Assembly (NCBI GenBank): GCA_024875585.1
Contig: GCA_024875585.1_4107.1
From: a phage
Strand: one strand, 5' to 3'
Length of the DNA: 64,000 bases
The notes below the pieces were generated by a model. The model did no database searches, was not told the DNA's origin, and saw nothing but the letters and a program-made list of their open reading frames with translations. This document shows, in pieces, positions 27,175 to 52,611 of this stretch. The position numbers were made by a program, and so were the translations under genes. The stretch's first letter is position 1; every line of letters begins with the position of its first letter.

Positions 27175-27195
27175 ACTATATAAGAGGATTAAAAA

Positions 27196-27435
27196 ATGGC
27201 TAAATCAAAAATGTTCTTAGGTCACAAAAACAAAACTCATTGGAATGTAAGCCTTTGGATTAATAACGATGAGTCATTGTACCGGTTGGCCCAGGACTTT
27301 ATTGCCGCCAACACTAATCGCAATGATGCGGCCCGTCATATGATGTTATTTTTAGAACAGACTGGACAAGATAAAACACCGGACGGATTCAAATATAGCA
27401 CTACTGCGATCCGTGCGGCGATGGTTGGAATGTAA
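27196..27435 (+). CDS. hypothetical early protein (79 aa); paralogue of 29228..29467
   Basis: shared GHKNKTHWNVSLWINNDESLYR...STTAIRAAMVGM. Confidence 0.65.
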   Translation: MAKSKMFLGHKNKTHWNVSLWINNDESLYRLAQDFIAANTNRNDAARHMMLFLEQTGQDKTPDGFKYSTTAIRAAMVGM

Positions 27436-27520
27436 TAGAATTTATTTAAAGTACTATCGCAAAAAATGATAGTACTTTATAATAGTGTTTTATTCATACA
27501 CCAACGATAAGGGCAACAGC

Positions 27521-30027: not shown

Positions 30028-30036
30028 AAAAAGTAC

Positions 30037-30064
30037 TTGCAATTAGTTTTTAGTACTGTATAAT
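30037..30064 (+). promoter_or_regulatory. early promoter TTGCAA-N16-TATAAT
   Basis: consensus; leader hairpin GGGAGAAATGGTTCTCCC at 30078..30095. Confidence 0.6.
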
Positions 30065-30114
30065 GTTTTACATAGAGGGGAGAAATGGTTCTCCCTGGTA
30101 ATGAGGAAAATACA

Positions 30115-30336
30115 ATGGCTAATATCACTACTCTTTCTCAACTGGAAGCACTGGTTAAATCTATGCGGGAACATGCCGACAAAATCGGCGTAAAAGATCC
30201 AGCCGTTTGCTTCTGCGACGAAATGAATGATGATACATTGGTAATAGCAGAAGTTCAGGACGTTTCTAACTATTCATCGCGTTACACTGGCGGCGTAGCA
30301 AATAAAGGTGACTTCTGTTTATACCTTACAAAATAA
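30115..30336 (+). CDS. hypothetical early protein (73 aa)
   Basis: ATG after SD GAGGAAAA; track start is the ATG inside the hairpin loop. Confidence 0.6.
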   Translation: MANITTLSQLEALVKSMREHADKIGVKDPAVCFCDEMNDDTLVIAEVQDVSNYSSRYTGGVANKGDFCLYLTK

Positions 30337-31895: not shown

Positions 31896-32122
31896 TGCTT
31901 ATCGTTTACCATGCCACCAGCACCGCCTAGAATCGATTCTAACGCATTAAACTGATTATCTGATGAATCGCCCTAGCTGGTGGCGTTAATGCCGTTAGAA
32001 CGCGATTGAGGATGTTTAAAGTATTTTTGCAAAAAGTAATAAAAAGTACTTGCACGATTAAGAGATTAGAGTATAATTAATTACATCAAGACAAGACACC
32101 TTAACTAACTGAGGATATAAAG

Positions 32123-32275
32123 ATGAATACTTATGAACTGGATTGTTTTACTTTACAAGTAATGTCAGTATGCAGTAAAAAAGATTGGTCATCAAAGGAA
32201 TTTAAAGCAGTTATTGCGTGTGCAAAACACGGCAAGACTATCAATGAAACGGCATCAATCATTGATAAACTTTAA
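32123..32275 (+). CDS. small hypothetical protein (50 aa)
   Basis: promoter TTGCAC...TATAAT upstream; SD GAGGATA; below track cutoff. Confidence 0.4.
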   Translation: MNTYELDCFTLQVMSVCSKKDWSSKEFKAVIACAKHGKTINETASIIDKL

Positions 32276-32345
32276 AAAATAGTTTGACAATAGTTTTAAG
32301 TACTGCGATAATACATACATCAACTACTGAATAGGAATAAAAACA

Positions 32346-32573
32346 ATGGCTATCGTAATCACTCGCGTAACTGGTACTACTGGCACTGCTTCAACTGTTG
32401 CTGTAATTACTAATAAGAAAGGTGCAGAATTACATTTTGCAATGGATAAATGGGCCGTTAATGAGTTTGGTCAGTGGGCAAGTGTAGAATACATTGAAAC
32501 CTATCAAGTGCCATCGATTAGCTTAACTGATTTAGGTGTAGAACGTATCCTTTGTCTGGATGAATTAAATTAA
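32346..32573 (+). CDS. hypothetical early protein (75 aa)
   Basis: promoter TTGACA...CGATAAT upstream; SD AGGAATAA. Confidence 0.6.
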   Translation: MAIVITRVTGTTGTASTVAVITNKKGAELHFAMDKWAVNEFGQWASVEYIETYQVPSISLTDLGVERILCLDELN

Positions 32574-32660
32574 AAAAGTACTTGCAAAGTAAATCGAATA
32601 AAGTATAATACATTACATCAAGGGGAGAAAATGGTTCTCCCCACTAAGAGGAAACTAAAA

Positions 32661-32804
32661 ATGAAAACTTGTCAATGTGGTAAAAAATCTATTACTGGTT
32701 TGAAACGGGGCGTTTCACTTTGCCAGTACCATTATAATTTACAAGTATGGGGTAAAGAATGGGCCGACCAGGTTGAAGCATCAAAGAAAGCAAAAAGTAA
32801 GTAA
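32661..32804 (+). CDS. small Cys-rich protein (47 aa), possible zinc ribbon
   Basis: CQCG...CQYH; promoter + hairpin + SD AAGAGGAAA; below track cutoff. Confidence 0.4.
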   Translation: MKTCQCGKKSITGLKRGVSLCQYHYNLQVWGKEWADQVEASKKAKSK

Positions 32805-32823
32805 AATTATTATCACAGTACTA

Positions 32824-32852
32824 TTGACATAGATTGATAGTACTGGCATAAT
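32824..32852 (+). promoter_or_regulatory. repeated promoter cassette TTGACA-N17-CATAAT (copy 1)
   Basis: about 80 bp block incl. RBS and ATGGCT repeated at 33119, 35781, 42948. Confidence 0.55.
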
Positions 32853-32885
32853 AGATTTTATCAAGACAACTAAGAGGAAATTAAA

Positions 32886-33098
32886 ATGGCTATCATTATT
32901 AAAAACAAAGTTAATAAGACTATCGTTAAACTGGCAGAAGTGAAAGAAGGTTATAAAGTATCTTGGGAGGGTTTTTATCGGACGTTTACTGATATTGACG
33001 ATGCAATCAATTACTACACTGATACGGTTAAAAACTTTGTTCGTGCTGATGTGGTTATGGCAGTGGCAACATATAAAGCATCAAAAGAAAGTAAGTAA
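32886..33098 (+). CDS. hypothetical early protein (70 aa)
   Basis: MAII... start shared with 35841 gene; SD AAGAGGAAA. Confidence 0.6.
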   Translation: MAIIIKNKVNKTIVKLAEVKEGYKVSWEGFYRTFTDIDDAINYYTDTVKNFVRADVVMAVATYKASKESK

Positions 33099-33118
33099 AA
33101 AATATTATCACAGTACTA

Positions 33119-33147
33119 TTGACATAGATTGATAGTACTGGCATAAT
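33119..33147 (+). promoter_or_regulatory. repeated promoter cassette (copy 2)
   Basis: identical to copy 1. Confidence 0.55.
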
Positions 33148-33180
33148 AGATTTTATCAAGACAACTAAGAGGAAATTAAA

Positions 33181-33525
33181 ATGGCTAACATCAATACTAT
33201 AGCAGCACAAAATATCAACCTGTCTTCTGTTGAAGTTGTACACATTGCCGCCCGGCGTTGGTTCCAGGCGTCTTATGGTAATACGTATTTCTCTTTAACG
33301 GTAGATGTTGAAATCAATGGCGAATTTATTGAAGTAGTAAACGTGCCGTTCCAATATGGCTACGGGGATCATTTTGACACTGTAGCAATGGAAGAATTAA
33401 GCAAGGTTATTAATATGGAAGGTAAAGAGTTTTTACGCGGTTCTTATCTTTCCCGTTTTTGCCGTGATAATAATATTACTGTTTATAGTTCTGTTAGTGA
33501 TGTTAAACGCAAAAAAGATCTTTAA
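33181..33525 (+). CDS. hypothetical early protein (114 aa); paralogue of 39222..39545
   Basis: shared FQYGYGDHF / FTYGYGTQG and C-terminal VKRKKD. Confidence 0.65.
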   Translation: MANINTIAAQNINLSSVEVVHIAARRWFQASYGNTYFSLTVDVEINGEFIEVVNVPFQYGYGDHFDTVAMEELSKVINMEGKEFLRGSYLSRFCRDNNITVYSSVSDVKRKKDL

Positions 33526-33538
33526 TTAGCTTTACTTT

Positions 33539-33567
33539 ATGCAGATACTTTGATACAGTGTCTGCAT
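33539..33567. promoter_or_regulatory. inverted repeat ATGCAGA-N15-TCTGCAT
   Basis: 7 bp perfect inverted repeat after 33181 gene; operator or weak terminator. Confidence 0.3.
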
Positions 33568-33605
33568 AGGGGAAAGAAATTAAATCAACTTAAGAGGATA
33601 GTAAA

Positions 33606-33875
33606 ATGAAAAATATCAGTACTTTAATCGATGCAGGTACACATGTTCGTCGGTCTATGGTTGCAACCAGTTCTACAAAACAAGTAGCGAGCGGTTATCT
33701 TGTATTTGTGCACGATGGTAAACTCCTGGAACGTTCAATCAATTTTGATGTTAAAAACAATTGCCGTTTTATTATCTTTAAGCGTGAGCAATATAAAATT
33801 GATTTACCAGCGAAGCCCATTAGTGGGGCGTACAACGTTCAATCATTGTTTGAGCGTCAACCATACACCTATTAA
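33606..33875 (+). CDS. hypothetical protein (89 aa)
   Basis: SD AAGAGGATAG. Confidence 0.6.
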   Translation: MKNISTLIDAGTHVRRSMVATSSTKQVASGYLVFVHDGKLLERSINFDVKNNCRFIIFKREQYKIDLPAKPISGAYNVQSLFERQPYTY

Positions 33876-33926
33876 TCAAAACAACGTTAGCGGTCGATTT
33901 AGGCCGCTTATACTGGGGATTATATA

Positions 33927-34199
33927 ATGAATACTAATCAAGTACTGAATGAGATTGAAAGCATCATTAAACCGATGAAGCGTACTGATGCTATGTTAAC
34001 ACCGGAAGAATGCCGCCTTTATGAGCGTTACAGCGTCGAACAAGTCCAGGCAATGGCTATGGCTACCCCAGCCGTTAAACAGCCTGAGAACGCGTTACAG
34101 GACGTTACAGGGGATTATATCATCAATCCAGTACTAGGGAAGATGGAAGCAATCACCGAAGAACAAAAAGACTACTTAAGCCAGTACTTAAAAGGTTAA
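33927..34199 (+). CDS. hypothetical protein (90 aa)
   Basis: ORF, ATG start. Confidence 0.55.
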   Translation: MNTNQVLNEIESIIKPMKRTDAMLTPEECRLYERYSVEQVQAMAMATPAVKQPENALQDVTGDYIINPVLGKMEAITEEQKDYLSQYLKG

Positions 34200-34204
34200 T
34201 TAAT

Positions 34205-34414
34205 ATGCTTACTGTACAGGATAAGATCGACATCTTAAAGGTTAATATGTATGTGATTGATGCAGATCCTGAAAAAGTATTTGCATACGATGATTCTAAT
34301 CGTAGTCCTTTTTATTGTAGTCATGTAGTTGGATATGTGCCGTTATCGTATGTTATCGAAAGAGTGGTTGATTCAGCATACAAACATTTTTTAGAAAATA
34401 GTACTTGCAATTAG
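34205..34414 (+). CDS. hypothetical protein (69 aa)
   Basis: TAATTAATATG junction. Confidence 0.55.
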   Translation: MLTVQDKIDILKVNMYVIDADPEKVFAYDDSNRSPFYCSHVVGYVPLSYVIERVVDSAYKHFLENSTCN

Positions 34415-34482
34415 TTTTTAGTACTGTATAATGTTTTACATGAAGGGGGGAAATGATTCTCCCCAATAACAGGAGAAACAAA

Positions 34483-34635
34483 ATGAAACAATACAACGCT
34501 CGGTTTGATGTTACTATCGGCAACGGCAAAGGTCAATTCTCTTTCAGTACTCGTAAGAGTTATACAGAAAACTTCTTGCGTAATTGTGCACTGACCGCCG
34601 CACAAATTAAACATTATTTTCAGGCTAAAAAATGA
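34483..34635 (+). CDS. small hypothetical protein (50 aa)
   Basis: ATG after SD AGGAGAAA; track start 34453 lies in the leader hairpin. Confidence 0.45.
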   Translation: MKQYNARFDVTIGNGKGQFSFSTRKSYTENFLRNCALTAAQIKHYFQAKK

Positions 34636-34721
34636 AATCATTAGCTTATTATAGCTCGGCCCTGGTCGGTGCATTGATCGCGGCATTGTTAGTAGCTTAT
34701 CTATTCTTTATGGTGATTTAA
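34632..34721 (+). CDS. tiny hydrophobic peptide (29 aa)
   Basis: ATGA-coupled; single TM-like segment; speculative. Confidence 0.3.
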   Translation: MKSLAYYSSALVGALIAALLVAYLFFMVI

Positions 34722-34859
34722 ATGAATCCTAACGGTATAATTTACAGTACTCCTAAAACGAAAGCAGATAAAGCGGAAGCACGTAAAGCGAAAGTAAAGG
34801 AGTACATCAAGCAAGGTATGACACGAAAGGCGGCGATTCTAAAAGCTAAAAATAAATGA
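34722..34859 (+). CDS. small basic protein (45 aa)
   Basis: TAAATG-coupled; Lys-rich; speculative. Confidence 0.3.
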   Translation: MNPNGIIYSTPKTKADKAEARKAKVKEYIKQGMTRKAAILKAKNK

Positions 34860-34866
34860 AAAAAAG

Positions 34867-34889
34867 TGGTTGACTTCGGTCAGCCATTT
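34867..34889 (+). terminator. terminator hairpin (GGTTGAC-UUCG-GTCAGCC) with weak T-tract
   Basis: start of a 130 bp repeated intergenic module. Confidence 0.5.
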
Positions 34890-34915
34890 TGCTATTATAT
34901 ATTCATTGAGAGATA

Positions 34916-43553: not shown

Positions 43554-43572
43554 CAAAAAAAAAGAATAAAAA

Positions 43573-43597
43573 GGGATTGACTCCGGTCAGTCCCTTT
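43573..43597 (+). terminator. terminator hairpin (GGGATTGAC-UCCG-GTCAGTCCC + TTT)
   Basis: same cassette as 41282. Confidence 0.5.
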
Positions 43598-43623
43598 GCT
43601 ATTATATACGCATAGACAAAAAC

Positions 43624-43655
43624 TAGCCCACAGGGTGCATAGGTGTATCTAAAAT
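43624..43655. repeat. dispersed intergenic repeat, orientation A (diverged)
   Basis: AGCCCACAGGGTGCATAGGTGTATCTAAAATAT. Confidence 0.4.
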
Positions 43656-43799
43656 ATATAGTTAATAACGGTGAGTAACCATCTGCTGGTGGAGTGAAAA
43701 CTATTAATAAAAAGTATTGACAAAGTATATCAGTACTGCAATAATGTATCTCGTAGGGCGGCAATGGTGCGACGGCCCACAAAGTTAGGAGATACACAA

Positions 43800-44132
43800 A
43801 TGAGTACTTCAATCGCTATCGTTAAAGCTTTCATCCGTACCAACGTTTCATCTGTATTCATTGACGGATTGGATCGGGAAGTAGAATACTCAATCATTAT
43901 CGCACAAACGGCAAACGGTGCTCGGTACATCCTTAATGATAGTGAAGCAAATCACTACTACTTCACTAAAGCCACTGGCTTTAAACGCATCGATGCTGAT
44001 GTAGTATACGCTAAGATGAATAAGCTGGTAGATAAGATTAACACTAAAGGTACTATCGATTTACAGTACTGGACCGAAACCGATCCAGAATATGGATCTC
44101 ACCGCTACCTGAATCCAGGTATTAAAATGTAA
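43800..44132 (+). CDS. hypothetical protein (110 aa)
   Basis: ATG after SD AGGAGATA; promoter TTGACA...TGCAAT upstream. Confidence 0.6.
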   Translation: MSTSIAIVKAFIRTNVSSVFIDGLDREVEYSIIIAQTANGARYILNDSEANHYYFTKATGFKRIDADVVYAKMNKLVDKINTKGTIDLQYWTETDPEYGSHRYLNPGIKM

Positions 44133-44221
44133 AAAGTACTTGTGTAGCACTTAGATTTAAGTATAATGTTTTTCATAGAGAGGGGGAAATGGTTCTCCCT
44201 CATAAATTAAGGAGTTTTATC

Positions 44222-44623
44222 ATGACCTTCTCAATCACTTCCTTCGCTGACGTTTTAGTACTGGCTCGGACTTTTGGCAAAGCTGGCCTTGAGCACGCTG
44301 TAAGTAATGGTTATATGCACCCGGAATATTGCCGCATTATCGGTAGCTGCAAACGTTGGGCCGTGTCCCGTAATATTGAGATTGAAAACTTCAATGATGG
44401 TAACAACGAATATACAGTTGATGCAGTATTCGAATCCGTTGATCTCGGCGGTATCTATAACACTAACCTGAATGATGTGCGTATCGTTCGCACGGGGTTC
44501 GGTGCTTATGATGTATCTATCCGTGAAGCGATGGACAAGGGATACATTAGCAAGGATCAGTTAGCTTACATTATGCAGCAGACTAAAGAGCGTAATGAAG
44601 CACGCACTATCTTAGGTCTGTAA
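44222..44623 (+). CDS. hypothetical protein (133 aa)
   Basis: ATG after SD AAGGAG; track start lies in the hairpin. Confidence 0.6.
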   Translation: MTFSITSFADVLVLARTFGKAGLEHAVSNGYMHPEYCRIIGSCKRWAVSRNIEIENFNDGNNEYTVDAVFESVDLGGIYNTNLNDVRIVRTGFGAYDVSIREAMDKGYISKDQLAYIMQQTKERNEARTILGL

Positions 44624-45093: not shown

Positions 45094-45123
45094 TGACTTT
45101 TTATATAAATCGTATAAAATATG
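45094..45123 (+). promoter_or_regulatory. candidate promoter for family L array (TTGACT...TATGAT)
   Basis: hexamers with about 18 bp spacing; weak. Confidence 0.3.
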
Positions 45124-45150
45124 ATTGATAATAATTTTAAGGGAGTCCCT

Positions 45151-45348
45151 GTGCGTATTTTAACTCAAGCAGAACACCACGAAAGACTTATCAATAACAT
45201 GGCTATGATAATGTATAAGTCCCATGACCGTGGTATTGCCTATAAGCGTGAATTAGTACTGGAACTATTCATTGGAACTAACTTTCAGGAAAGGTATGTC
45301 AACGATTGGATTTGGTATTTAATTGAAGATATAACGAGTAAACTATGA
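45151..45348 (+). CDS. family L small protein
   Basis: GTG start 5 nt after SD AAGGGAG gives MRILTQAEH (family-like N-terminus); motif FIGTNFQERYV. Confidence 0.5.
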   Translation: MRILTQAEHHERLINNMAMIMYKSHDRGIAYKRELVLELFIGTNFQERYVNDWIWYLIEDITSKL

Positions 45349-45539
45349 TCATTTTAAATAAAGAAGAATATCAAGAACTGTTACGTAAAAACTTTGTAAA
45401 GATTTATAATACAGACACACACGTAGAACGAATGGAGTTATACCTTTTGATTACATTGGGAACTAACTATCAGGAAAGATGGGTGATTCAATATATGGAT
45501 ACATTGAAAAATAAAATATTGTCCACGAGGAAACAATGA
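45345..45539 (+). CDS. family L small protein
   Basis: motif TLGTNYQERWV; ATGA coupling. Confidence 0.65.
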   Translation: MIILNKEEYQELLRKNFVKIYNTDTHVERMELYLLITLGTNYQERWVIQYMDTLKNKILSTRKQ

Positions 45540-45745
45540 AAACTATAACACGAACCCAATCATACGGACTTATCTTGAAATACATGGACTTAATGGTGGA
45601 TATCAGCAAAGACCTGCCTAAAACTGCAATTGAAGTTGCAAGAGCAGAGATCCGCATGTTGGCTGTACTGAACACAAACCATCAGGAAGAGTATGTTGAC
45701 GATTGGATTCGATTTTTAATAGAAGATATTAAGAGTAAACTATGA
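45536..45745 (+). CDS. family L small protein
   Basis: motif VLNTNHQEEYV; ATGA coupling. Confidence 0.65.
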   Translation: MKTITRTQSYGLILKYMDLMVDISKDLPKTAIEVARAEIRMLAVLNTNHQEEYVDDWIRFLIEDIKSKL

Positions 45746-45954
45746 TTATATTAACACCTGAAGAATATAAGAAACGTTTTAATTCTGTCCAGACTGAAAT
45801 ATTACTTATATACCTTTCAAATGCAGATCTTAACTTATCAAGGGTAATGGAGAAGGATTTACTTATGGGTGCATTTTTGGATACAGACTTTCAGGAGTAT
45901 TATGTAGGGGAATACTTTATTGCACTTCAGAACCACATTAAGAGTAAACTATGA
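45742..45954 (+). CDS. family L small protein
   Basis: motif FLDTDFQEYYV; ATGA coupling. Confidence 0.65.
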   Translation: MIILTPEEYKKRFNSVQTEILLIYLSNADLNLSRVMEKDLLMGAFLDTDFQEYYVGEYFIALQNHIKSKL

Positions 45955-46166
45955 TTATTCTAGAAAAATCATATCAATATACTGAACGCATCGCTGCCAG
46001 ACAACTTGAAATCCTCATAATATACGAAGAGACTTCTGATTTAAACTTAGCCGAGGTATTGGAAAATGAAATACTTTTGGGTGCATTCTTGGGAACAGAC
46101 TATCAGGAGTATTATGAGGAAAAGTATTTGTCATCTCTTGAGAAATACGTCAGGAGCAAACTATGA
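45951..46166 (+). CDS. family L small protein
   Basis: motif FLGTDYQEYY; ATGA coupling. Confidence 0.65.
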   Translation: MIILEKSYQYTERIAARQLEILIIYEETSDLNLAEVLENEILLGAFLGTDYQEYYEEKYLSSLEKYVRSKL

Positions 46167-46390
46167 AACATTTAAGTAATATAGAGAAGAATAAAATTAT
46201 CATTGCTGTAATAAACAAATATTTTACACTTCCACAAAAAGAATGTTTATCTATAAGGGAACACAGGATAAACACCACCGAGATTCGCATGTTGGCTGTA
46301 CTGGGGACTAACTTCCAAGAAGGCTATGTTCATGAGCACATCGTTGCACTCACTAATTACATAATGGACAAATGTAATGAACATCATTAA
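46163..46390 (+). CDS. family L small protein
   Basis: motif VLGTNFQEGYV. Confidence 0.65.
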   Translation: MKHLSNIEKNKIIIAVINKYFTLPQKECLSIREHRINTTEIRMLAVLGTNFQEGYVHEHIVALTNYIMDKCNEHH

Positions 46391-46601
46391 TAACTTTGAA
46401 TACGAGGCCCGTGCTAAGAGTGCCAGAAAAAAAGAGAACACCATTTACTTCACTATGATGTACTTACAATGGACTGAAATTGAAGAAAAGGTTGCTGAAG
46501 TATGGATGTTGGAATTCATGGGGACGCAGTATCAGAATAGGTTTGCGGGTGAGTATATCAATGTTCTTATGAAACAAATAGAAAGGAAGGAAAAGAACTA
46601 A
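46377..46601 (+). CDS. family L small protein
   Basis: motif FMGTQYQNRF. Confidence 0.6.
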   Translation: MNIINNFEYEARAKSARKKENTIYFTMMYLQWTEIEEKVAEVWMLEFMGTQYQNRFAGEYINVLMKQIERKEKN

Positions 46602-46690
46602 TGGAGGGATGCTGTACTTTATTGGAACTTTTATATATTCATGAACACATAGTTGCCCTCACAAATCTAATAAAGGATAAATGTAAATGA
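46601..46690 (+). pseudogene. family L gene remnant (29-codon ORF matching only the C-terminal third)
   Basis: HEHIVALTNLIKDKCK matches C-terminus of 46163 gene; GTNYQE core absent; still start/stop-coupled. Confidence 0.4.
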
Positions 46691-46944
46691 AACACTTGAC
46701 TGATGATGAACATGAAACTATAATTCGTAAACTAACCCCCATCACAAGGATAGTCTACGGTGATCCCAGCCTCACATGGAACCAAATGCGAGCTAAAGTT
46801 AATGAGCTATGGTTGCTGTACTTTATGGGGACTCAATATCAAGATAAGTTTTGCACAGAATATATCGAACAATTAACGAATGTTATACAGGATAAACTAA
46901 ATGAACGAATTGTGGAAAAATATGAAAACTTTATCAAGCATTGA
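46687..46944 (+). CDS. family L small protein
   Basis: motif FMGTQYQDKF. Confidence 0.65.
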   Translation: MKHLTDDEHETIIRKLTPITRIVYGDPSLTWNQMRAKVNELWLLYFMGTQYQDKFCTEYIEQLTNVIQDKLNERIVEKYENFIKH

Positions 46945-47173
46945 GTATCAGACTGCCCTCTTCTCTCTTCTAAACACCCTCCGCACGAACAATAAACTTT
47001 ATAATTCCCGTGAAGCTGATATTGTCAACGCTGATGTATATCTTAATAAATTTATAGGGACTAACTATCAAGAACTGTTTGTTTTACGATATATCTCTGC
47101 ACTAAGAAACGAAATATCAGATAAAACCCGCCAAGCCAGAAGAGAATGGAAGAGACAATGCAACAAAGACTAA
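46901..47173 (+). CDS. family L small protein
   Basis: motif FIGTNYQELFV; start may be internal ATG at 46922. Confidence 0.6.
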   Translation: MNELWKNMKTLSSIEYQTALFSLLNTLRTNNKLYNSREADIVNADVYLNKFIGTNYQELFVLRYISALRNEISDKTRQARREWKRQCNKD

Positions 47174-47409
47174 ATCACAAAATGTATTGTAAACTATTAC
47201 AGAATCTAGGACAAAAACACTATGATACAGTATCTGAAATATTACCCTATGATATCATGCGTTTAATTCATAGTGAGGCAGAGATGCTTGTACTGATGAC
47301 CGGTACTGATAAAACAGCAATCACCAGATCGATAGAGCAATATATTGATGCACACTGTCAATGTATTAGAACTGAGATATGGAGGCGAGTAAATGAAAGT
47401 ACTGAATGA
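47146..47409 (+). CDS. family L small protein (diverged)
   Basis: motif LMTGTDKTAI. Confidence 0.5.
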   Translation: MEETMQQRLNHKMYCKLLQNLGQKHYDTVSEILPYDIMRLIHSEAEMLVLMTGTDKTAITRSIEQYIDAHCQCIRTEIWRRVNESTE

Positions 47410-47608
47410 GTATCAGTATCATTGGAGGTTACAAACTATAAGAGGGAAAGTTGTTAGTATTTCTTTAGATAAGTCTATTGCACAAGAGGACAAATGTGTT
47501 ATAATAGCTGAAATGAAGTTGGGTGTATTTGTAGGAACAAACTATCAAAACATCTACACTGACGTATTATTAAGTGCCTTACGCAACAAGGTGTTATCCA
47601 GAGAATGA
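47393..47608 (+). CDS. family L small protein
   Basis: motif FVGTNYQNIY; SD GGAGG. Confidence 0.65.
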   Translation: MKVLNEYQYHWRLQTIRGKVVSISLDKSIAQEDKCVIIAEMKLGVFVGTNYQNIYTDVLLSALRNKVLSRE

Positions 47609-47823
47609 GAAAATTAATAGGTTACGAATATGTTAAGCTTCTGAAAACCTGTAGTATTAGCAGGGTAAAGATTCAATCTGATAAGAGTATTCCTGTTGAA
47701 CTAAAGTACGCAATGATGGCTGAACTTTATGTAGGTGCACTATTGGGGACAAACTATCAACAAATGTATGTAGACCTATGGGTTGACGCACTACTGAAAG
47801 AGGTCCAAAGTAAATGCAAATGA
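47605..47823 (+). CDS. family L small protein
   Basis: motif LLGTNYQQMYV. Confidence 0.65.
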   Translation: MRKLIGYEYVKLLKTCSISRVKIQSDKSIPVELKYAMMAELYVGALLGTNYQQMYVDLWVDALLKEVQSKCK

Positions 47824-48035
47824 TTCATTTATCTTACTATGAATATCAAAAACGTTTAAATGCATCAAGGGATATAAGGATTAAAATCTACAATAACAAA
47901 AGATTGAAATCTGAAGCCAAAAAAATCAAAATGATAGAAGCTGAATTATGCAACTTCCTTGGGACGAACTATCAGGATGATAAGGTAACAAACTATCTTA
48001 GAGAACTAATGATTAGTATCAAGAGTAAATGTTAG
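47814..48035 (+). CDS. family L small protein
   Basis: motif FLGTNYQDDKV. Confidence 0.65.
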   Translation: MQMIHLSYYEYQKRLNASRDIRIKIYNNKRLKSEAKKIKMIEAELCNFLGTNYQDDKVTNYLRELMISIKSKC

Positions 48036-48039
48036 GCAG

Positions 48040-48297
48040 ATGTACATGAAAATGATTAAATTATCTCAAGCAAAATATAAAGAACGCCTGGTGAAAATTG
48101 CACCTAGACTTAATGAAATCCATCACGGAGAAGTCATTAAACACGGAAATAAGATGATTATGAAACTTGAGTTAAAGGTGGGTGCATTCATAGGAACAAA
48201 CTATCAGGAGTATTATGTAGATGAATACATAATCGCACTTAAGAGATACATTGGAAGAAAACTATATCTACAAACTAAAGAATTGTATTGCAAATAA
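48040..48297 (+). CDS. family L small protein
   Basis: motif FIGTNYQEYYV. Confidence 0.65.
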   Translation: MYMKMIKLSQAKYKERLVKIAPRLNEIHHGEVIKHGNKMIMKLELKVGAFIGTNYQEYYVDEYIIALKRYIGRKLYLQTKELYCK

Positions 48298-48314
48298 ATG
48301 CAAGGATAATGAAT

Positions 48315-48578
48315 ATGAAAATGATCAATTTAAGTAAAGATGAATATACCGAGCGTATGACAAAAATTACGCACAAACGTAATACAATCTATCACAACCC
48401 AGAAATTCAACACAGTAAGAAAATGATTATGATGCGTGAGTTAAAGATGGGTGTATTCTTAGGAACAAACTATCAAGATACAGAAGTAAATCGCTTAATC
48501 GCGGAGTTACTACTGGAAATCAGAGGTAAGCTGTACTTTCATCAAATGACCCAACCACTGAGGTGTACTAAGAAATGA
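48315..48578 (+). CDS. family L small protein
   Basis: motif FLGTNYQDTEV; ATG after SD AAGGATA (track start 48288 further upstream). Confidence 0.6.
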   Translation: MKMINLSKDEYTERMTKITHKRNTIYHNPEIQHSKKMIMMRELKMGVFLGTNYQDTEVNRLIAELLLEIRGKLYFHQMTQPLRCTKK

Positions 48579-48790
48579 TCAACATCACATTGCAAGAAAG
48601 ATTCATCCGAATCAACTATGCAATTACCAAATTAGATGCTACTATAGGATTCCAAAGTCTACCGTTCCAAACAAGAATGATATTAGAGTGCGAAGCTAAA
48701 TTGGGTGTACTGTTAGGAACGCAACACCAACAACGATATGTGGAAATCTGGATTGATCTTTTAACCCAAAATGTACATGAGAAAATGTAA
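48575..48790 (+). CDS. family L small protein
   Basis: motif LLGTQHQQRYV. Confidence 0.65.
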   Translation: MINITLQERFIRINYAITKLDATIGFQSLPFQTRMILECEAKLGVLLGTQHQQRYVEIWIDLLTQNVHEKM

Positions 48791-49027
48791 ATGAAAAATG
48801 AAATGATATACTTAACGAATGAAGAGTTTCAAGAGAAGATGTTAAAAATCTATGATAATACTCTTGAGTACGTTCCAAATCAATCAATATATGAAGTGTC
48901 TGCGAATGTATTATTTCAGAAGCTACCATACGTTCTTGGAACGGATAAACAAGAATTTATGGTCAAAAATATGATTGAACATCTTATGATGAGTATTAAG
49001 GAAAAAGTGAATGCAAAAGAAAAATGA
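48791..49027 (+). CDS. family L small protein
   Basis: motif VLGTDKQEFMV. Confidence 0.6.
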   Translation: MKNEMIYLTNEEFQEKMLKIYDNTLEYVPNQSIYEVSANVLFQKLPYVLGTDKQEFMVKNMIEHLMMSIKEKVNAKEK

Positions 49028-49274
49028 AATGATATACTTAACACCTGCTGAGTTAACAGAAAGACTAGTTAAATCCAGAAGATATACAAATCAACTTCCT
49101 CACAACCCAAATCAAACCCCAGCGGAAAGGAGTGCAGAAGTTTTATTCCAATCACTACCATACCTTCTTGGAACTAATAGACAAGAGTATCATATCGAAC
49201 GTATAATTAAATATCTTAAAATTACTATTAAGGAAAAAGTAAATGCTCAAGAATTTAAAAATCCTAACAGTTAA
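49011..49274 (+). CDS. family L small protein
   Basis: motif LLGTNRQEYHI; N-terminus near-duplicate of 48791 gene. Confidence 0.6.
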   Translation: MQKKNEMIYLTPAELTERLVKSRRYTNQLPHNPNQTPAERSAEVLFQSLPYLLGTNRQEYHIERIIKYLKITIKEKVNAQEFKNPNS

Positions 49275-49485
49275 TGAATATCATAAGATTGTAATGAAAA
49301 CTAATAGTGCAATTTCTAAAAAATCAAACCCAAAGTACATACTGGAACACACATTTGAAGAACGTCAATTAGCTTTAGTTGAAGCAAAACTTCTTGCACT
49401 ATTAGGAACAAACTATCAGGAAGAATACATCAGAAAACTAATATACCTTTTAACTAAACACATCAGGAAAAGAAAAAAAGCATGA
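49243..49485 (+). CDS. family L small protein
   Basis: motif LLGTNYQEEYI. Confidence 0.65.
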   Translation: MLKNLKILTVNEYHKIVMKTNSAISKKSNPKYILEHTFEERQLALVEAKLLALLGTNYQEEYIRKLIYLLTKHIRKRKKA

Positions 49486-49712
49486 AGCACTTGACAGATG
49501 ATGAACATGGGCTTATAGTAATGGATGTAATCAACATCGAATACAAAAAGTTGATACGCTATCGTTGTTATGAAGATAAGCAACTAGTTCTAGCAGAACA
49601 GAAGTTGTTTCGACTCTTAAACACAAACTTCCAAGCACAATACGAAGAATCGTATATGTACCTTTTGGCGAGGAAAGCAAAAAGAGATTATGAAAATTTT
49701 AAGCAAAGGTGA
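49482..49712 (+). CDS. family L small protein
   Basis: motif LLNTNFQAQY. Confidence 0.6.
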   Translation: MKHLTDDEHGLIVMDVINIEYKKLIRYRCYEDKQLVLAEQKLFRLLNTNFQAQYEESYMYLLARKAKRDYENFKQR

Positions 49713-49911
49713 TTCAGTAATATTACTTATAGAGAGTTCAAATAAATTCTTAAACATAACACTGTCTGATATAGATGAAGATGATAAAGAAGTACTGAGA
49801 GCAGATTTAAGAGTACTGTTACATCTCGGAACAAACCTACAAGAAGAATATGTAGAGTACTACATTGATGAACTTAAAGAATCAGTACTGAGAAGATGCA
49901 AATGCGAATGA
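49690..49911 (+). CDS. family L small protein
   Basis: motif HLGTNLQEEYV. Confidence 0.6.
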   Translation: MKILSKGDSVILLIESSNKFLNITLSDIDEDDKEVLRADLRVLLHLGTNLQEEYVEYYIDELKESVLRRCKCE

Positions 49912-50123
49912 TTACCGACGAAGAATACCTAACAATTATAAATGGATTGTTTTTGAAGTTGTTTGTTATTAACACATCAGATATACCAGATATGGATAAA
50001 ATTATTAAGAGAAATGAAATCTATGTTCTAGCTACCCTGGGAACTAACTATCAAGAATGCAATATTAATGATTATATTAATACACTTAAAGGAGCGATTG
50101 AACTAAAATGCCAAAACCACTAG
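49896..50123 (+). CDS. family L small protein
   Basis: motif TLGTNYQECNI. Confidence 0.65.
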   Translation: MQMRMITDEEYLTIINGLFLKLFVINTSDIPDMDKIIKRNEIYVLATLGTNYQECNINDYINTLKGAIELKCQNH

Positions 50124-50323
50124 GAACAGCAGAATACATTGAACTCATGGGATTACACTTCTCATCCTTTCAGAAACTTATGCGAGAATCAAAGAATGAT
50201 TTAGAATATACCATCAGAGGTTCAGATTTAAGAATGCTTCTCACCCTAGACACAGATTCCCAAGAGAGATTTGTCAATGAGCATATTAGAGCACTTTTAA
50301 TGGAAATTAAAAGTAAACTATGA
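50108..50323 (+). CDS. family L small protein
   Basis: motif TLDTDSQERFV. Confidence 0.6.
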   Translation: MPKPLGTAEYIELMGLHFSSFQKLMRESKNDLEYTIRGSDLRMLLTLDTDSQERFVNEHIRALLMEIKSKL

Positions 50324-50535
50324 AGGTAATATCAAACCAAGAGTACTTGGCACTATTCAGGAAGAATAATCACAAATATATGGCACTTGATTCAAGAACT
50401 GATATAGGGGAACTTGAAAAAAATCTTTTGCGTTCAGAGATGATAGTACTGACACTCTTAGGAACACAACATCAAGAGAGAACTGTTGATTCATATATTG
50501 AGATTCTTAAGAAGCTTATACAGGAAAAACTATGA
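50320..50535 (+). CDS. family L small protein
   Basis: motif LLGTQHQERTV. Confidence 0.65.
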   Translation: MKVISNQEYLALFRKNNHKYMALDSRTDIGELEKNLLRSEMIVLTLLGTQHQERTVDSYIEILKKLIQEKL

Positions 50536-50762
50536 GAATCATAACACAAACAGACATATTTAAGTTAGCAAGGGAACATACATCTGAAATTGATGCTATA
50601 GTATCAAAAAGTTACAATGACCCTTATACACAAGATGTGCACTACAATGAATTATGGGTGTATATACTTTTAGGTACAAATTATCAAGAGCAAGCAGTAC
50701 AGAAGTATTTGGCAGCTTTAAGTACTGCTACTGCTAATAGTATAGGTATTAAAAAATGCTAG
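50532..50762 (+). CDS. family L small protein
   Basis: motif LLGTNYQEQAV. Confidence 0.65.
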   Translation: MRIITQTDIFKLAREHTSEIDAIVSKSYNDPYTQDVHYNELWVYILLGTNYQEQAVQKYLAALSTATANSIGIKKC

Positions 50763-50992
50763 TACTGACAGAACTAGAAATGTATCATAGATTTAATAAG
50801 TACTATCATTTACTTAAGCCTATACAGAGGATTAAATGTCCATTTGAAGAGAAACAGGTATTAATTTATGAGCATAAGTTATTTGTATCATTAGGTACGA
50901 ATGAACAAGAGTATTATTTGAAGTTGTACTTAATTACTTTAATTGAATTGATTAATCACAAAACACAGAAAGCTAAGAAATCTAAAAAATGA
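50756..50992 (+). CDS. family L small protein
   Basis: motif SLGTNEQEYYL. Confidence 0.6.
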   Translation: MLVLTELEMYHRFNKYYHLLKPIQRIKCPFEEKQVLIYEHKLFVSLGTNEQEYYLKLYLITLIELINHKTQKAKKSKK

Positions 50993-51327
50993 AAACTAAT
51001 ATTCAACTCAAGGTATACATATCTTATGAATCTATATACATCAAATGCAGTCTATGTAAAGATGTAATGGATTATAAAGGTAAGCCATTCACAATTACTT
51101 ACAGTCTAACAGGAGGCTTTTATATATCTTTTGTTGATTACGAAAATAAAATATACAAGCACATTGATATTAAAGATTTAAGTACCTTGTCAGATGAGGA
51201 ATACTTTCAAGAATCATTAGTATGGGATTTAGAGTTTCCTATGACATTAGTACACAAAATGATAGTACTAATGAAAGAAACTAAACCTGAGCCGAGTGGT
51301 TATGAAGAATTCATTATTGAGTATTAA
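50989..51327 (+). CDS. family B protein (112 aa) interleaved in family L array
   Basis: motif DEEYFQESLVWD. Confidence 0.6.
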   Translation: MKTNIQLKVYISYESIYIKCSLCKDVMDYKGKPFTITYSLTGGFYISFVDYENKIYKHIDIKDLSTLSDEEYFQESLVWDLEFPMTLVHKMIVLMKETKPEPSGYEEFIIEY

Positions 51328-51339
51328 GAGTACTGATAT

Positions 51340-51555
51340 ATGAAAAGATTATCATACAAAGATTACAGTAAACTTATCAGTACTTTACAACCAGAAATTA
51401 GAAGAATTAATTATCTTCCTATACCCAACGAAGAACGTGTAGTACTGAAAAATGAGTTAATATTAAAACGCACAGTAGGTACTAACTATCAAGATAATAG
51501 TGTTTGCGATTTAATTAGAGGGTTAATGATCACAATAAAGGCCAAGTGCTATTGA
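51340..51555 (+). CDS. family L small protein
   Basis: motif TVGTNYQDNSV. Confidence 0.65.
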   Translation: MKRLSYKDYSKLISTLQPEIRRINYLPIPNEERVVLKNELILKRTVGTNYQDNSVCDLIRGLMITIKAKCY

Positions 51556-51561
51556 CAGTAC

Positions 51562-51590
51562 TTGACGGAGCTTTTCATTACTGATATAGT
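51562..51590 (+). promoter_or_regulatory. sigma70-like promoter TTGACG-N17-TATAGT
   Basis: internal promoter within the array. Confidence 0.45.
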
Positions 51591-51619
51591 ACACTAACGT
51601 TAATCATAGGGTAGAAATT

Positions 51620-51865
51620 ATGTTAAAATTTTTAAATTTCCTTATCGTCTTGTGTATTGTTCTTGGGATTGCACCGTTTGTACTGGTGTATATGGATTCA
51701 GATGAAATGCAAAAGATGAATTGCACAAAGACGGGACAGAGTAGAGAAGAGACGATTCTTATGCCTGTTACTGTTATTGTTAATAATATGCCCATTACAA
51801 ACATGGTCCCTACCCTAACGACAACGTACCAGTACTCTTGTACAGACGGGGAGAGGTGGAGATGA
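51620..51865 (+). CDS. small protein with N-terminal hydrophobic segment (81 aa)
   Basis: MLKFLNFLIVLCIVLGIAPFVLVYM looks like a signal peptide or TM helix. Confidence 0.5.
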   Translation: MLKFLNFLIVLCIVLGIAPFVLVYMDSDEMQKMNCTKTGQSREETILMPVTVIVNNMPITNMVPTLTTTYQYSCTDGERWR

Positions 51866-52182
51866 AATTTAATATAGCAAAAACATCGAATGTATGTATA
51901 TTTGGTTATGCAGAAGAGTTAGGTGATATTGACATTCTTTTGTACAAAAAGGATGGTGTTATGCATTTCAAGTACCAGGATGAAGAGGCAGACAATTATC
52001 TTTTGCCTAATTTAGTACAAATGCAGGAAGAGGAATTATTCCAGTACAGCTTAGTATATGACATTGATATTTGCACGATGCCAGTACTAATTAATATTCA
52101 AAAAGTGATGCTCGATGTGTTTGATAGGCTAATACAAGGCACACAAGGAAGAACCATATATGTCAATGTACAAGACAATTAA
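51862..52182 (+). CDS. family B protein (106 aa)
   Basis: motif EELFQYSLVYD; ATG after SD GGAGAGGTGGAG (track start 51838). Confidence 0.6.
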   Translation: MKFNIAKTSNVCIFGYAEELGDIDILLYKKDGVMHFKYQDEEADNYLLPNLVQMQEEELFQYSLVYDIDICTMPVLINIQKVMLDVFDRLIQGTQGRTIYVNVQDN

Positions 52183-52375
52183 TCAAGAATGGAAGAATCA
52201 AAAGTACAGAGAATTCAATAGGAATTTTACAAAAGACGAATTGAATATAAAAACAACAGAATTTGATATGTTTATTTTTCTCGGAACACGTTCTCAGGAG
52301 CAATTTGTTCATTATTATATAAATTCGTTGCGAGCGGAGATAGTATGCAAAACAAAGGGTATTATAAAAAGGTAA
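52160..52375 (+). CDS. family L small protein
   Basis: motif FLGTRSQEQFV. Confidence 0.6.
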   Translation: MSMYKTINQEWKNQKYREFNRNFTKDELNIKTTEFDMFIFLGTRSQEQFVHYYINSLRAEIVCKTKGIIKR

Positions 52376-52611
52376 ACCAACATTTGTACGCTACAAAGTA
52401 CAGGGATTTTTGTTTAAAGGGTGGTGATGAAGATTTTTCTTTGCGATTATCAGAATTTAATCTGTTATTTTATCTTGGTACATCGGAACAAGAAGAAATG
52501 GCACAGAAATTTCTCAATCACCTTGTACAAAAAATTAATATGCAAATTTTGATGCTTAAGTTACAGGATGAGATAAATGAATATGAACCCAACAATAGTA
52601 CAGGATCTTAA
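52345..52611 (+). CDS. family L small protein (diverged)
   Basis: motif YLGTSEQEEM. Confidence 0.55.
   Translation: MQNKGYYKKVNQHLYATKYRDFCLKGGDEDFSLRLSEFNLLFYLGTSEQEEMAQKFLNHLVQKINMQILMLKLQDEINEYEPNNSTGS

What the first reader, a model, noticed from the sequence alone, without database searches (positions are those of the whole stretch)
32806..33185. Duplicated promoter + RBS + ATGGCT start cassette fused to unrelated gene bodies
An 80 bp block (...TATTATCACAGTACTATTGACATAGATTGATAGTACTGGCATAATAGATTTTATCAAGACAACTAAGAGGAAATTAAAATGGCT) is repeated almost exactly before the genes at 32886, 33181 and 35841, with a diverged copy before 43005. The duplication reaches back into the 3' end of the preceding gene (...AAAGTAAGTAA). 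The downstream proteins share only their first two or three residues. This is the same cassette-swapping pattern as in the RCC1-like cluster and points to illegitimate recombination at conserved expression signals.
Basis: seen in the sequence. Interest (0 to 1): 0.5.

Follow-up and report, generated by a model that had tools for sequence, protein, structure and literature searches.

The report
Shuffling promoter cassettes in a jumbo phage
A roughly 85-base expression cassette (promoter, hairpin, ribosome-binding site and start codon) sits in front of several unrelated small early genes of an E. coli jumbo phage. Comparison with related phages shows that genes are gained, lost and swapped by recombination within these cassettes, which is the process already described for T4-like phages.

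Summary
An 85-nt stretch is identical at 32808-32892 and 33103-33187. A third copy (35773-35840) differs by two substitutions and a 2-nt deletion, and a diverged fourth lies at 42940-43004. The window is the early-gene, terminal-repeat region of an Asteriusvirus jumbo coliphage, about 96% identical to ph0011 and UE-S1.

Each cassette holds, in order:
- the upstream stop codon and an AT-rich tract;
- a conserved inverted repeat, CAGTACTAT/ATAGTACTG, around a TTGACA -35;
- a TGn-CATAAT -10;
- a short leader, the Shine-Dalgarno AAGAGGAAA, and ATGGCT.

The genes behind the copies belong to different protein families of unknown function.

Across 15 Asteriusvirus genomes, the slot after one conserved gene carries seven arrangements. 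The 295-nt unit of cassette plus 70-aa gene equals one repeat period and is absent from the two closest relatives. Leader types move between slots. The same gene bodies and cassettes occur in a different order in a Vequintavirinae phage and a Phapecoctavirus phage.

This matches the PeSL "mobile regulatory cassettes" of T4-like phages, so it is a new member of a known kind. Promoter and terminator activity are inferred, not measured. In passing, AGTACT is about 11-fold over-represented in the window, and I found no explanation for that.

The parts
32661..32804 (+). 47-aa early gene (g47). Its last codons (about 32780-32804, ...GCATCAAAGAAAGCAAAAAGTAAGTAA) resemble the tail of the 70-aa gene, so the repeat unit reaches into the upstream coding sequence.
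   Evidence: Orthologues at 91-96% amino-acid identity in 12 of the 14 related genomes; absent from PBECO4 and E9.1.
32805..32885 (+). Cassette copy A1.
- AT-rich tract: 32805-32815
- Inverted-repeat arms: 32816-32824 and 32837-32845
- -35 TTGACA: 32824-32829
- TG extension: 32844-32845
- -10 CATAAT: 32847-32852
- Inferred transcription start: about 32859-32860
- Shine-Dalgarno AAGAGGAAA: 32872-32880
   Evidence: (11 of 12 consensus matches plus TG).
32886..33098 (+). 70-aa gene (g70, phrog_35559, unknown function). It is flanked by cassettes A1 and A2. Together with one cassette it forms the 295-nt unit that is absent from ph0011 and UE-S1.
33099..33180 (+). Cassette copy A2.
- Arms: 33111-33119 and 33132-33140
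- -35: 33119-33124
- -10: 33142-33147
- Shine-Dalgarno: 33167-33175
As RNA, 33090-33190 folds into a long hairpin that encloses the promoter (-20.5 kcal/mol, z = -4.67).
33181..33525 (+). 114-aa gene (g114, phrog_6246). It has a paralogue at 39222-39545. In other Asteriusvirus genomes a divergent 107-aa homologue sits behind the same promoter.
35762..35840 (+). Cassette copy B.
- Arms: 35773-35781 and 35794-35802
- -35: 35781-35786
- -10: 35804-35809
Its leader is a variant of the A-type leader (ACAACTGAGGAAA). The closest relatives carry a different leader at this slot.
35841..36020 (+). 59-aa gene (g59, phrog_9374) behind copy B.
36021..36121 (+). Related cassette in front of the next gene (start 36122).
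- 13-bp perfect arms: 36031-36043 and 36057-36069 (CAGTACTATCAAA / TTTGATAGTACTG)
- -35 TTGACA in the loop: 36048-36053
- -10 TATAAT: 36070-36075
   Evidence: (families D12 and D16). The same arm variant occupies slot B in G17 and SP27.
42930..43004 (+). Diverged cassette copy C.
- Arms: 42940-42948 and 42961-42969
- -35: 42948-42953
- -10 TATGAT: 42971-42976
- Own leader, with start ATGGAA at 43005 (85-aa gene, phrog_34861)

Best explanation
These are composite early-expression cassettes of an Asteriusvirus jumbo phage, equivalent in design to the PeSL (promoter-early stem-loop) elements of T4-like phages.

Each cassette is a near-consensus sigma-70 promoter (TTGACA, 17 nt, TGn-CATAAT) embedded in a conserved hairpin. 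A short unstructured leader, a strong Shine-Dalgarno and ATGGCT follow.

Inferred function: host RNA polymerase transcribes the small gene behind each cassette early in infection. In transcripts arriving from the upstream gene, the hairpin forms at the 3' end and probably attenuates or stabilises them.

Shown by comparison: the cassettes are long, nearly identical direct repeats spaced one gene apart, so the phage recombination machinery uses them as crossover sites. The results are deletion or insertion of cassette-plus-gene units, replacement of the gene body behind a cassette, and copying of leader segments from one slot to another.

The three near-identical copies in this window are the current state of that process, not a recent local duplication.
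For: Anatomy.
- Promoter match of 11/12 with a TG extension at all three copies.
- Hairpin at -20.5 kcal/mol, z = -4.67; none of 200 shuffles folds as well.
- The leader is unstructured.

Hairpin conservation.
- The nine inverted-repeat pairs are standard pairs in all 23 distinct family members from five phage groups.
- Four of those pairs change on both sides in phiWec179 or W70.
- Three A-to-G changes give G.U on the sense strand only.
- G17 and SP27 carry a re-registered 12-bp arm variant.

Recombination.
- The 295-nt cassette-plus-g70 unit equals one repeat period and is missing from ph0011 and UE-S1.
- There are seven arrangements at this slot in 15 genomes. All four combinations of g70 present/absent with g114/g107' occur.
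- Genomes lacking g70 carry different upstream-flank variants: AAAATTATT, AAAAATATT and TAAAATATT. This is consistent with separate crossover points.
- In E9.1 and PBECO4 the g47 body is deleted. Its hairpin-type promoter is joined to g70 inside the shared ribosome-binding module.
- In UB the cassette drives the 89-aa gene.
- The slot B leader is type U3 in most genomes and U2 in 121Q. In this window it is a U1 variant also seen at slot A1 of Ecwhy_1.
- Of 108 synteny-break ends across 24-45 kb, 87 lie outside gene interiors, although 58% of bases are gene interior.
- The same modules occur in another order in W70 and phiWec179.

The design and the indel pattern match the published PeSL description (PMC2839356).
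Against: - There are no expression data. Promoter, start site and terminator function are inferred from sequence alone.
- The stem is A+U-rich, with only 3 G-C pairs among the nine arm pairs. The U-run is not adjacent to it, and the terminator scan does not call it. Termination may therefore be weak or absent.
- The arm sequence is invariant across Asteriusvirus, K64-1 and Hallingskeid. That also fits a protein-binding site.
- Most family members in the pair count were collected with a filter requiring at least 8 of 9 arm pairs. The unbiased support comes from the W70 and phiWec179 copies, which were found by synteny.
- The break-point count uses crude gene calls and events shared between relatives, so it is not a set of independent observations.
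- Recurrent deletion alone, without exchange between phages, could explain part of the arrangement table.
Confidence: 0.8

Rival explanations
1. Operator model. The inverted repeat CAGTACTAT-N12-ATAGTACTG is mainly the binding site of a phage-encoded (or host) dimeric regulator that recognises AGTACT. The copies are alike because they form one co-regulated set, and recombination at them is incidental.
For: - The arms are sequence-invariant in Asteriusvirus, Klebsiella K64-1 and Erwinia Hallingskeid, while the 12-nt loop varies freely.
- AGTACT occurs 225 times against 19.6 expected in the window. It is 6-fold enriched in PBECO4 core genes and 19- to 42-fold in early regions of Rak2-like phages.
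- Many other early promoters carry two AGTACT about 20-22 bp apart, next to the -35 and the -10.
Against: - phiWec179 and W70 keep the pairing with changed arm sequences. phiWec179 has no AGTACT at all in 12 kb.
- One-sided A-to-G changes preserve G.U pairing on the sense strand only.
- This model does not explain identity through the leader, or indels that equal one repeat period.
- It is compatible with the main explanation as an added layer, not a replacement for it.
Confidence: 0.25
2. Functional convergence only. The copies are similar because selection for a strong promoter and ribosome-binding site constrains every position, and no recombination between copies is involved.
For: The cassette core differs by at most 2 of 37 nt at slots A1 and A2 across the genus, while flanking genes diverge to 71-94%. 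ATGGCT starts are common in early genes generally.
Against: - There is 85/85 identity through spacer, loop and leader positions that vary freely in other family members.
- Whole leader types switch between slots.
- The indel equals the repeat period.
- All four presence/allele combinations exist.
Confidence: 0.05
3. Assembly artefact or very recent tandem duplication peculiar to this genome.
For: Two exact 85-nt copies lie 295 nt apart, a pattern that short-read assemblers can create or collapse.
Against: - The cassette-g70-cassette arrangement exists in 121Q, vB_Ec-M-J and Ecwhy_1.
- The two copies have different upstream flanks.
- g70 is a conserved gene found in 24 records.
Confidence: 0.03
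4. A selfish mobile element, such as a miniature inverted-repeat element or a homing cassette, that inserts itself upstream of genes.
For: It is a short repeated unit with an inverted repeat, present in several phage genera.
Against: - The inverted repeat is internal (9 bp arms, 12 nt apart), not terminal.
- No target-site duplications are visible, and no transposase or homing endonuclease is nearby.
- The copies occupy orthologous slots across the genus.
Confidence: 0.03

Closest known systems
PeSL (promoter-early stem-loop) mobile regulatory cassettes of T4-like phages (Arbiol et al. 2010, PMC2839356; Comeau et al. 2014, PMC4122927)
   Same: - About 100 nt running from the upstream stop codon through an AT-rich tract, a sigma-70-like -35/-10, a stem-loop placed at or between the boxes, a Shine-Dalgarno and the start codon.
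- Clustered in variable regions in front of small genes of unknown function.
- Close relatives differ by one gene flanked by two cassettes versus a single cassette. This is the RB49/phi1 ORF192 case, and here it is window versus ph0011/UE-S1.
   Different: - The host phage is a Rak2-like jumbo phage, not a T4-like one.
- The cassettes lie in the roughly 21-kb direct terminal repeat.
- The stem is A+U-rich and built on the palindrome AGTACT rather than polyG/polyC.
- The arm sequence itself is conserved across genera.
- The same cassettes and gene bodies are shared with Vequintavirinae and Phapecoctavirus.
- Promoter activity, terminator activity and mini-circles have not been tested here.
Morons of lambdoid phages: single genes carrying their own promoter and terminator, inserted between conserved genes (from my own knowledge of the literature)
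   Same: Autonomous one-gene expression units that come and go between relatives at intergenic positions.
   Different: Morons are not bounded by a repeated, shared cassette that provides the homology for exchange. They are usually expressed from the prophage.
Intergenic repeats carrying promoters in halovirus HF2 (PMC8707807; abstract seen)
   Same: Short repeated intergenic sequences in a virus genome that contain promoters.
   Different: It is an archaeal virus with archaeal promoter motifs. I did not read the paper beyond the abstract, so I cannot compare any role in recombination.
RpoD-like early promoters with UP elements in the Rak2-like phage CBB (PMC5259590)
   Same: The same phage group. 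Sigma-70-type promoters are concentrated in front of short hypothetical genes, including in the terminal repeat.
   Different: In the passages I read, that paper lists promoters found by motif search. They mention no embedded hairpin, no AGTACT palindrome and no role in gene shuffling.

Membership tests
PeSL (T4-type mobile regulatory cassette) | Sigma-70-like early promoter with an AT-rich tract upstream of the -35 | tested here: met
   TTGACA, 17 nt, TGn-CATAAT: 11 of 12 consensus matches at 32824, 33119 and 35781. An A/T-only tract lies between the stop codon and the left arm. Activity was not measured.
PeSL (T4-type mobile regulatory cassette) | Stem-loop within or next to the promoter | tested here: met
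   9-bp arms bracket the -35. The extended RNA hairpin folds at -20.5 kcal/mol, z = -4.67. Arm pairing is kept in all 23 family members, with four arm pairs changed on both sides.
PeSL (T4-type mobile regulatory cassette) | The stem-loop acts as a transcription terminator or attenuator | not testable with these tools
   The stem is A+U-rich and the simple terminator scan does not call it. This needs 3'-end mapping or a reporter assay.
PeSL (T4-type mobile regulatory cassette) | Shine-Dalgarno and start codon of the downstream gene at the 3' end; stop codon of the upstream gene at the 5' end | tested here: met
   The stop codons end at 32804, 33098 and 35761. AAGAGGAAA lies 5 nt before the ATG (core GAGG 8 nt before it).
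PeSL (T4-type mobile regulatory cassette) | Located in variable regions in front of small genes without known function | tested here: met
   All the downstream genes fall in PHROGs of unknown function and have no Pfam match. The region shows many gene-sized indels between relatives.
PeSL (T4-type mobile regulatory cassette) | Indels or replacements between close relatives are bounded by the cassettes | tested here: met
   The 295-nt unit is absent from ph0011 and UE-S1. There are seven arrangements in 15 genomes.
PeSL (T4-type mobile regulatory cassette) | Formation of excised mini-circles | not testable with these tools
   This requires PCR with outward-facing primers on infected-cell or virion DNA.
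PeSL (T4-type mobile regulatory cassette) | Host genome is a T4-like phage, the scope of the published family | tested here: not met
   The window matches Asteriusvirus, a Rak2-like group of jumbo phages. No sequence similarity to published PeSLs was tested or claimed.
Rho-independent terminator | G+C-rich stem immediately followed by a U-run | tested here: not met
   These cassettes are not among the 17 terminator-like sites in 30-46 kb. Only 3 G-C pairs occur among the nine arm pairs, and UUUU begins 11 nt after the arm.
Transposable or homing element | Terminal inverted repeats, target-site duplication, or an associated transposase or endonuclease | tested here: not met
   The inverted repeat is internal. 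There is no such gene in the neighbourhood, and the copies sit at orthologous slots.

The most novel reading that the evidence does not exclude
The cassette arms may be one visible part of a lineage-specific AGTACT code in Rak2-like jumbo phages.

The palindrome is about 11-fold over-represented in this window. It is 6-fold over-represented in PBECO4 core genes and 19- to 42-fold in early regions of Asteriusvirus, Klebsiella K64-1 and Erwinia Hallingskeid. In many early promoters it occurs as a pair about two helical turns apart, beside the -35 and the -10.

A phage factor that reads or modifies AGTACT could use these sites. Candidates are an early-promoter switch, a self-DNA mark, or a recombination or packaging aid. 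The cassettes would then be both regulatory targets and recombination substrates.

The homologous cassette in Phapecoctavirus phiWec179 keeps the hairpin but has lost AGTACT, and that phage has none in 12 kb. The two properties therefore appear separable.
Probability: 0.25. Interest if true: 0.65.

Novelty: new member of a known kind. Interest (0 to 1): 0.4.

Why it matters
It extends promoter/stem-loop cassette shuffling from T4-like phages to the terminal-repeat early region of 350-kb jumbo coliphages. It also indicates that the same small early genes, with their cassettes, circulate among three different groups of large virulent enterobacterial phages.

That gives a concrete account of how these phages turn over their many small host-takeover genes. 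Practically, the cassettes are compact, probably very strong early expression units. They also mark the points where related therapeutic phages are most likely to differ or to recombine.

The idea itself is not new, so the value is in extension and documentation rather than surprise.

Tried and rejected
- An exact 30-mer search of IMG/VR viral contigs found nothing, so relatives had to come from GenBank phage records.
- BLASTP between the 70-aa and 59-aa proteins, which share MAII-K, found no alignment. I dropped the idea that they are diverged paralogues, although I did not run a profile comparison.
- Pfam gave no match for any of the eight neighbouring proteins.
- Rfam gave no family and ARAGORN no tRNA in the whole window.
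- The terminator scan did not flag the cassette hairpin.
- A search for papers mentioning AGTACT together with phage promoters returned nothing relevant.
- A search for PeSL together with jumbo, Rak2 or rV5 phages found only a reference-list citation.
- No database phage shares the exact slot B leader of this window; the best match is 95.6% over 201 nt.
- I considered and rejected an assembly artefact, a transposable element and pure functional convergence (see the rival explanations).
- Searches failed on input syntax.
- The synteny chains are imperfect. Repeated promoters caused some skipped segments, for example 32896..34392, so I use only the overall proportion.

Full report
**What the window is**

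Megablast of 32000-37000 finds 101 phage records. The best are Escherichia phages ph0011 (96.0%) and UE-S1 (95.6%), followed by other Asteriusvirus jumbo phages of about 350 kb such as PBECO4, 121Q and G17.

In vB_Ec-M-J the homologous stretch is annotated as part of the 21.5-kb direct terminal repeat. A 20,993-bp terminal repeat was confirmed by restriction digestion for fEgEco12 (PMC13070987).

The segment is a run of small plus-strand genes, almost each with its own sigma-70-like promoter.

**The observation**

- The 29-mer core occurs exactly three times and once with 3 mismatches, against none expected.
- Copies at 32824 and 33119 are identical over 85 nt (32808-32892 against 33103-33187) and diverge right after ATGGCTA.
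- Patchy similarity continues upstream into the last codons of the preceding genes.
- The third copy has the same promoter, but its leader differs by two substitutions and a 2-nt deletion. The fourth keeps only the inverted repeat and the -35.
- The downstream proteins (70, 114 and 59 aa) have no detectable similarity to each other. They belong to different PHROGs of unknown function, with no Pfam match.

**Anatomy**

Each cassette runs in this order:
1. the upstream stop codon;
2. an A/T-only tract;
3. CAGTACTAT, whose last T is the first base of the -35 TTGACA;
4. a 12-nt loop;
5. ATAGTACTG;
6. G, then the -10 CATAAT, with the TG of the arm acting as an extended -10;
7. a 33-nt leader containing AAGAGGAAA;
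8. ATGGCT.

As RNA, 33090-33190 folds into a long interrupted hairpin in which the A-tract pairs with the U-rich start of the leader. The energy is -20.5 kcal/mol with z = -4.67, and none of 200 shuffles folds as well. The leader itself is unstructured.

**Is the hairpin selected?**

I collected 23 distinct family members:
- Asteriusvirus;
- Erwinia phage Hallingskeid, which has eight copies in 8 kb, each before a different small gene;
- Klebsiella phage K64-1;
- Vequintavirinae phage W70;
- Phapecoctavirus phiWec179.

The nine arm pairs are standard pairs in all of them. Four of these pairs change on both sides: phiWec179 has TTATACTAT/ATAGTATAA and W70 has TAGCGCTAT/ATAGTGCTG. Three sequences carry an A-to-G change that gives G.U on the sense strand only.

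G17 and SP27 carry a re-registered variant with a 12-bp perfect arm at slot B. The window's own cassette at 36031-36069 has 13-bp arms.

A caveat applies. Most members were gathered with a filter requiring at least 8 of 9 pairs. The unbiased evidence comes from the W70 and phiWec179 copies, which were found by synteny. I read this as moderate support for a hairpin acting in the sense transcript.

Within Rak2-like phages the arm sequence is itself invariant. That leaves room for a protein-binding role.

**Evidence for recombination**

I compared 14 related Asteriusvirus genomes with the window. For every cassette copy I identified the gene before and after it. C stands for the cassette. At the slot after the conserved 47-aa gene (g47), seven arrangements exist:

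| Arrangement | Genomes |
|---|---|
| g47-C-g70-C-g114 | this window only |
| g47-C-g114 | UE-S1, ph0011, SHEFM2K, SP27 |
| g47-C-g70-C-g107' | 121Q, vB_Ec-M-J, Ecwhy_1 |
| g47-C-g107' | G17, JNE01, slurp01 |
| g70-C-g114, with the g47 body missing | E9.1 |
| g70-C-g107', with the g47 body missing | PBECO4 |
| g47-C-g89, with both middle genes missing | UB |

- All four combinations of g70 present/absent with g114/g107' occur.
- The unit missing from ph0011 is 295 nt, exactly the repeat period.
- Genomes without g70 carry different variants of the upstream flank (AAAATTATT, AAAAATATT, TAAAATATT). This fits different crossover points.
- In E9.1 and PBECO4 the hairpin-type promoter of g47 is joined to the g70 body. 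The junction lies inside a 20-nt ribosome-binding module (ACTAAGAGGAAAyTAAAATG) that the two promoter families share.
- In UB the cassette promoter is joined to the ribosome-binding site of g89.

Leader segments also move. Slot B has leader type U3 in most genomes and type U2 in 121Q; U2 is otherwise the leader of g107'. In this window slot B has a variant of U1 (ACAACTGAGGAAA) that is otherwise seen at slot A1 of Ecwhy_1.

More broadly, 87 of 108 synteny-break ends across 24-45 kb fall outside gene interiors, although 58% of the bases are gene interior. This count is crude and its events are not independent. One clear second example is the acetyltransferase gene at 36891-37247. It is flanked by promoter copies that are 91% identical (family D1) and is absent from PBECO4 and G17.

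**Beyond the genus**

W70, a 137-kb Vequintavirinae phage, has g47, g70b, cassette, g70, cassette, then a homologue of the window gene at 27196. It maps to window blocks 32503-32800, 35535-35859, 32821-33198 and 27183-27437, in that order, at 72-87% identity.

phiWec179 (Phapecoctavirus) has g59, a cassette, then a g114 homologue.

The same gene bodies and cassette types are therefore arranged differently in three phage taxa, with the junctions at the cassettes.

**Comparison with what is known**

The published PeSL elements of T4-like phages are about 100 nt. They hold the upstream stop codon, an AT-rich tract, a sigma-70-like promoter, a stem-loop at various positions relative to the boxes, a Shine-Dalgarno and a start codon. 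They cluster before genes of unknown function.

They explain differences such as ORF192, which is flanked by two PeSLs in RB49 and replaced by a single PeSL in phi1 (PMC2839356; PMC4122927). The present case has the same design and the same signature.

It differs in these respects:
- the host phage group (Rak2-like jumbo phages);
- the location in the terminal repeat;
- an A+U-rich stem built on AGTACT;
- sharing across phage taxa.

For the Rak2-like phage CBB, RpoD-like promoters with UP elements were reported in the early region and the terminal repeat. The passages I read mention no hairpin and no shuffling role (PMC5259590). I found no paper linking PeSL-type cassettes to jumbo, Rak2-like or rV5-like phages.

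I therefore classify this as a new member of a known kind. It works like a PeSL. Strict family membership fails only on host taxon and on the untested terminator and mini-circle properties.

**What is shown and what is inferred**

Shown:
- the repeats, their anatomy and the predicted fold;
- conservation of the pairing;
- the variety of arrangements and mosaic leaders;
- the coincidence of indel boundaries with the cassettes.

Inferred:
- that the promoter is active early with host RNA polymerase;
- that the hairpin attenuates or stabilises upstream transcripts;
- that recombination is homologous and ongoing;
- that cassette-plus-gene units can move between phage taxa.

**Side observation: AGTACT**

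AGTACT, the core of both arms, occurs 225 times in the window against 19.6 +/- 4.2 expected. CAGTAC/GTACTG is 11.6-fold over the mononucleotide expectation.

In the terminal-repeat part, 97 of 140 sites are intergenic. The 43 sites in called genes are still about ten times the expected density.

| Region | AGTACT enrichment |
|---|---|
| PBECO4 core-gene stretch, 40 kb | 6.2-fold |
| PBECO4 early region | 19-fold |
| Hallingskeid early region | 25-fold |
| K64-1 early region | 42-fold |
| phiWec179, 12 kb | no sites |

I have no explanation for this. It underlies the novel reading given separately.

Noticed in passing
Whole window, densest 20000-45000; also L020 (PBECO4 230-270 kb), L017, L018: The palindrome AGTACT occurs 225 times against about 20 expected. 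It is 6-fold enriched even in PBECO4 core genes and 19- to 42-fold in early regions of Rak2-like phages, but absent from 12 kb of Phapecoctavirus phiWec179. Many early promoters carry two copies about 20-22 bp apart, next to the -35 and the -10. No explanation was found in the literature searched.
   Followed up: partly
34850-35004, 38259-38413, 41266-41420, 43557-43660; similar hairpin-promoters at about 5858 and 10538; L018:400-545: A second repeated element. A G+C-rich terminator-like hairpin contains a TTGACT -35 in its stem and is followed by a TATTAT -10. About 45 nt downstream lies a conserved box, AGCCCACAGGGTGCGGGAGTGTATCTA, with no convincing open reading frame. The element is also conserved in Klebsiella phage K64-1. 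It could be a small RNA or a promoter-terminator composite. There is no Rfam match.
   Followed up: partly
36825-37298: The GNAT-type acetyltransferase gene (36891-37247) is flanked by two promoter copies that are 91% identical (36825-36870 and 37253-37298). It is absent from PBECO4 and G17, with the break inside those copies. This is a second example of cassette-bounded gene gain or loss.
   Followed up: partly
Examples: 30028-30117, 32573-32660, 34396-34485, 37524-37640, 41399-41490, 44131-44222: This is the main early promoter family (AAAAAGTACTTGCAA ... TATAAT). It is followed by a G/C-clamped hairpin in the leader (GGGGAGAAATGGTTCTCCCC). In 8 of the 9 copies whose loop holds an ATG, that ATG is in frame with the gene start 30 or 33 nt downstream, with no stop between. 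This may only reflect the fixed module length.
   Followed up: partly
33181-33525 and 39222-39545: These are paralogous genes (30% identity, both phrog_6246). At the first locus other Asteriusvirus genomes carry a 107-aa homologue that is closer to the second paralogue. This is a gene-body replacement behind the same promoter.
   Followed up: partly
35549-35761: The 70-aa gene just upstream of cassette B exists as two very different alleles across the genus, 72% versus 93-98% nucleotide identity to the window. The flanking 59-aa gene stays 95-100% identical, so the mosaic boundary lies at the cassette.
   Followed up: no
45100-52600: A long tandem array of about 30 paralogous genes of roughly 70 aa, seen as pairwise BLASTP hits. 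It starts about where the terminal-repeat early region ends.
   Followed up: no
L015 (W70, Vequintavirinae) and L016/L019 (phiWec179, Phapecoctavirus): Several small early genes of the window (g47, g70b, g70, g59, g114 and the gene at 27196) have 72-87% identical counterparts in phages of other subfamilies. They are arranged in a different order and separated by the same cassette types.
   Followed up: partly
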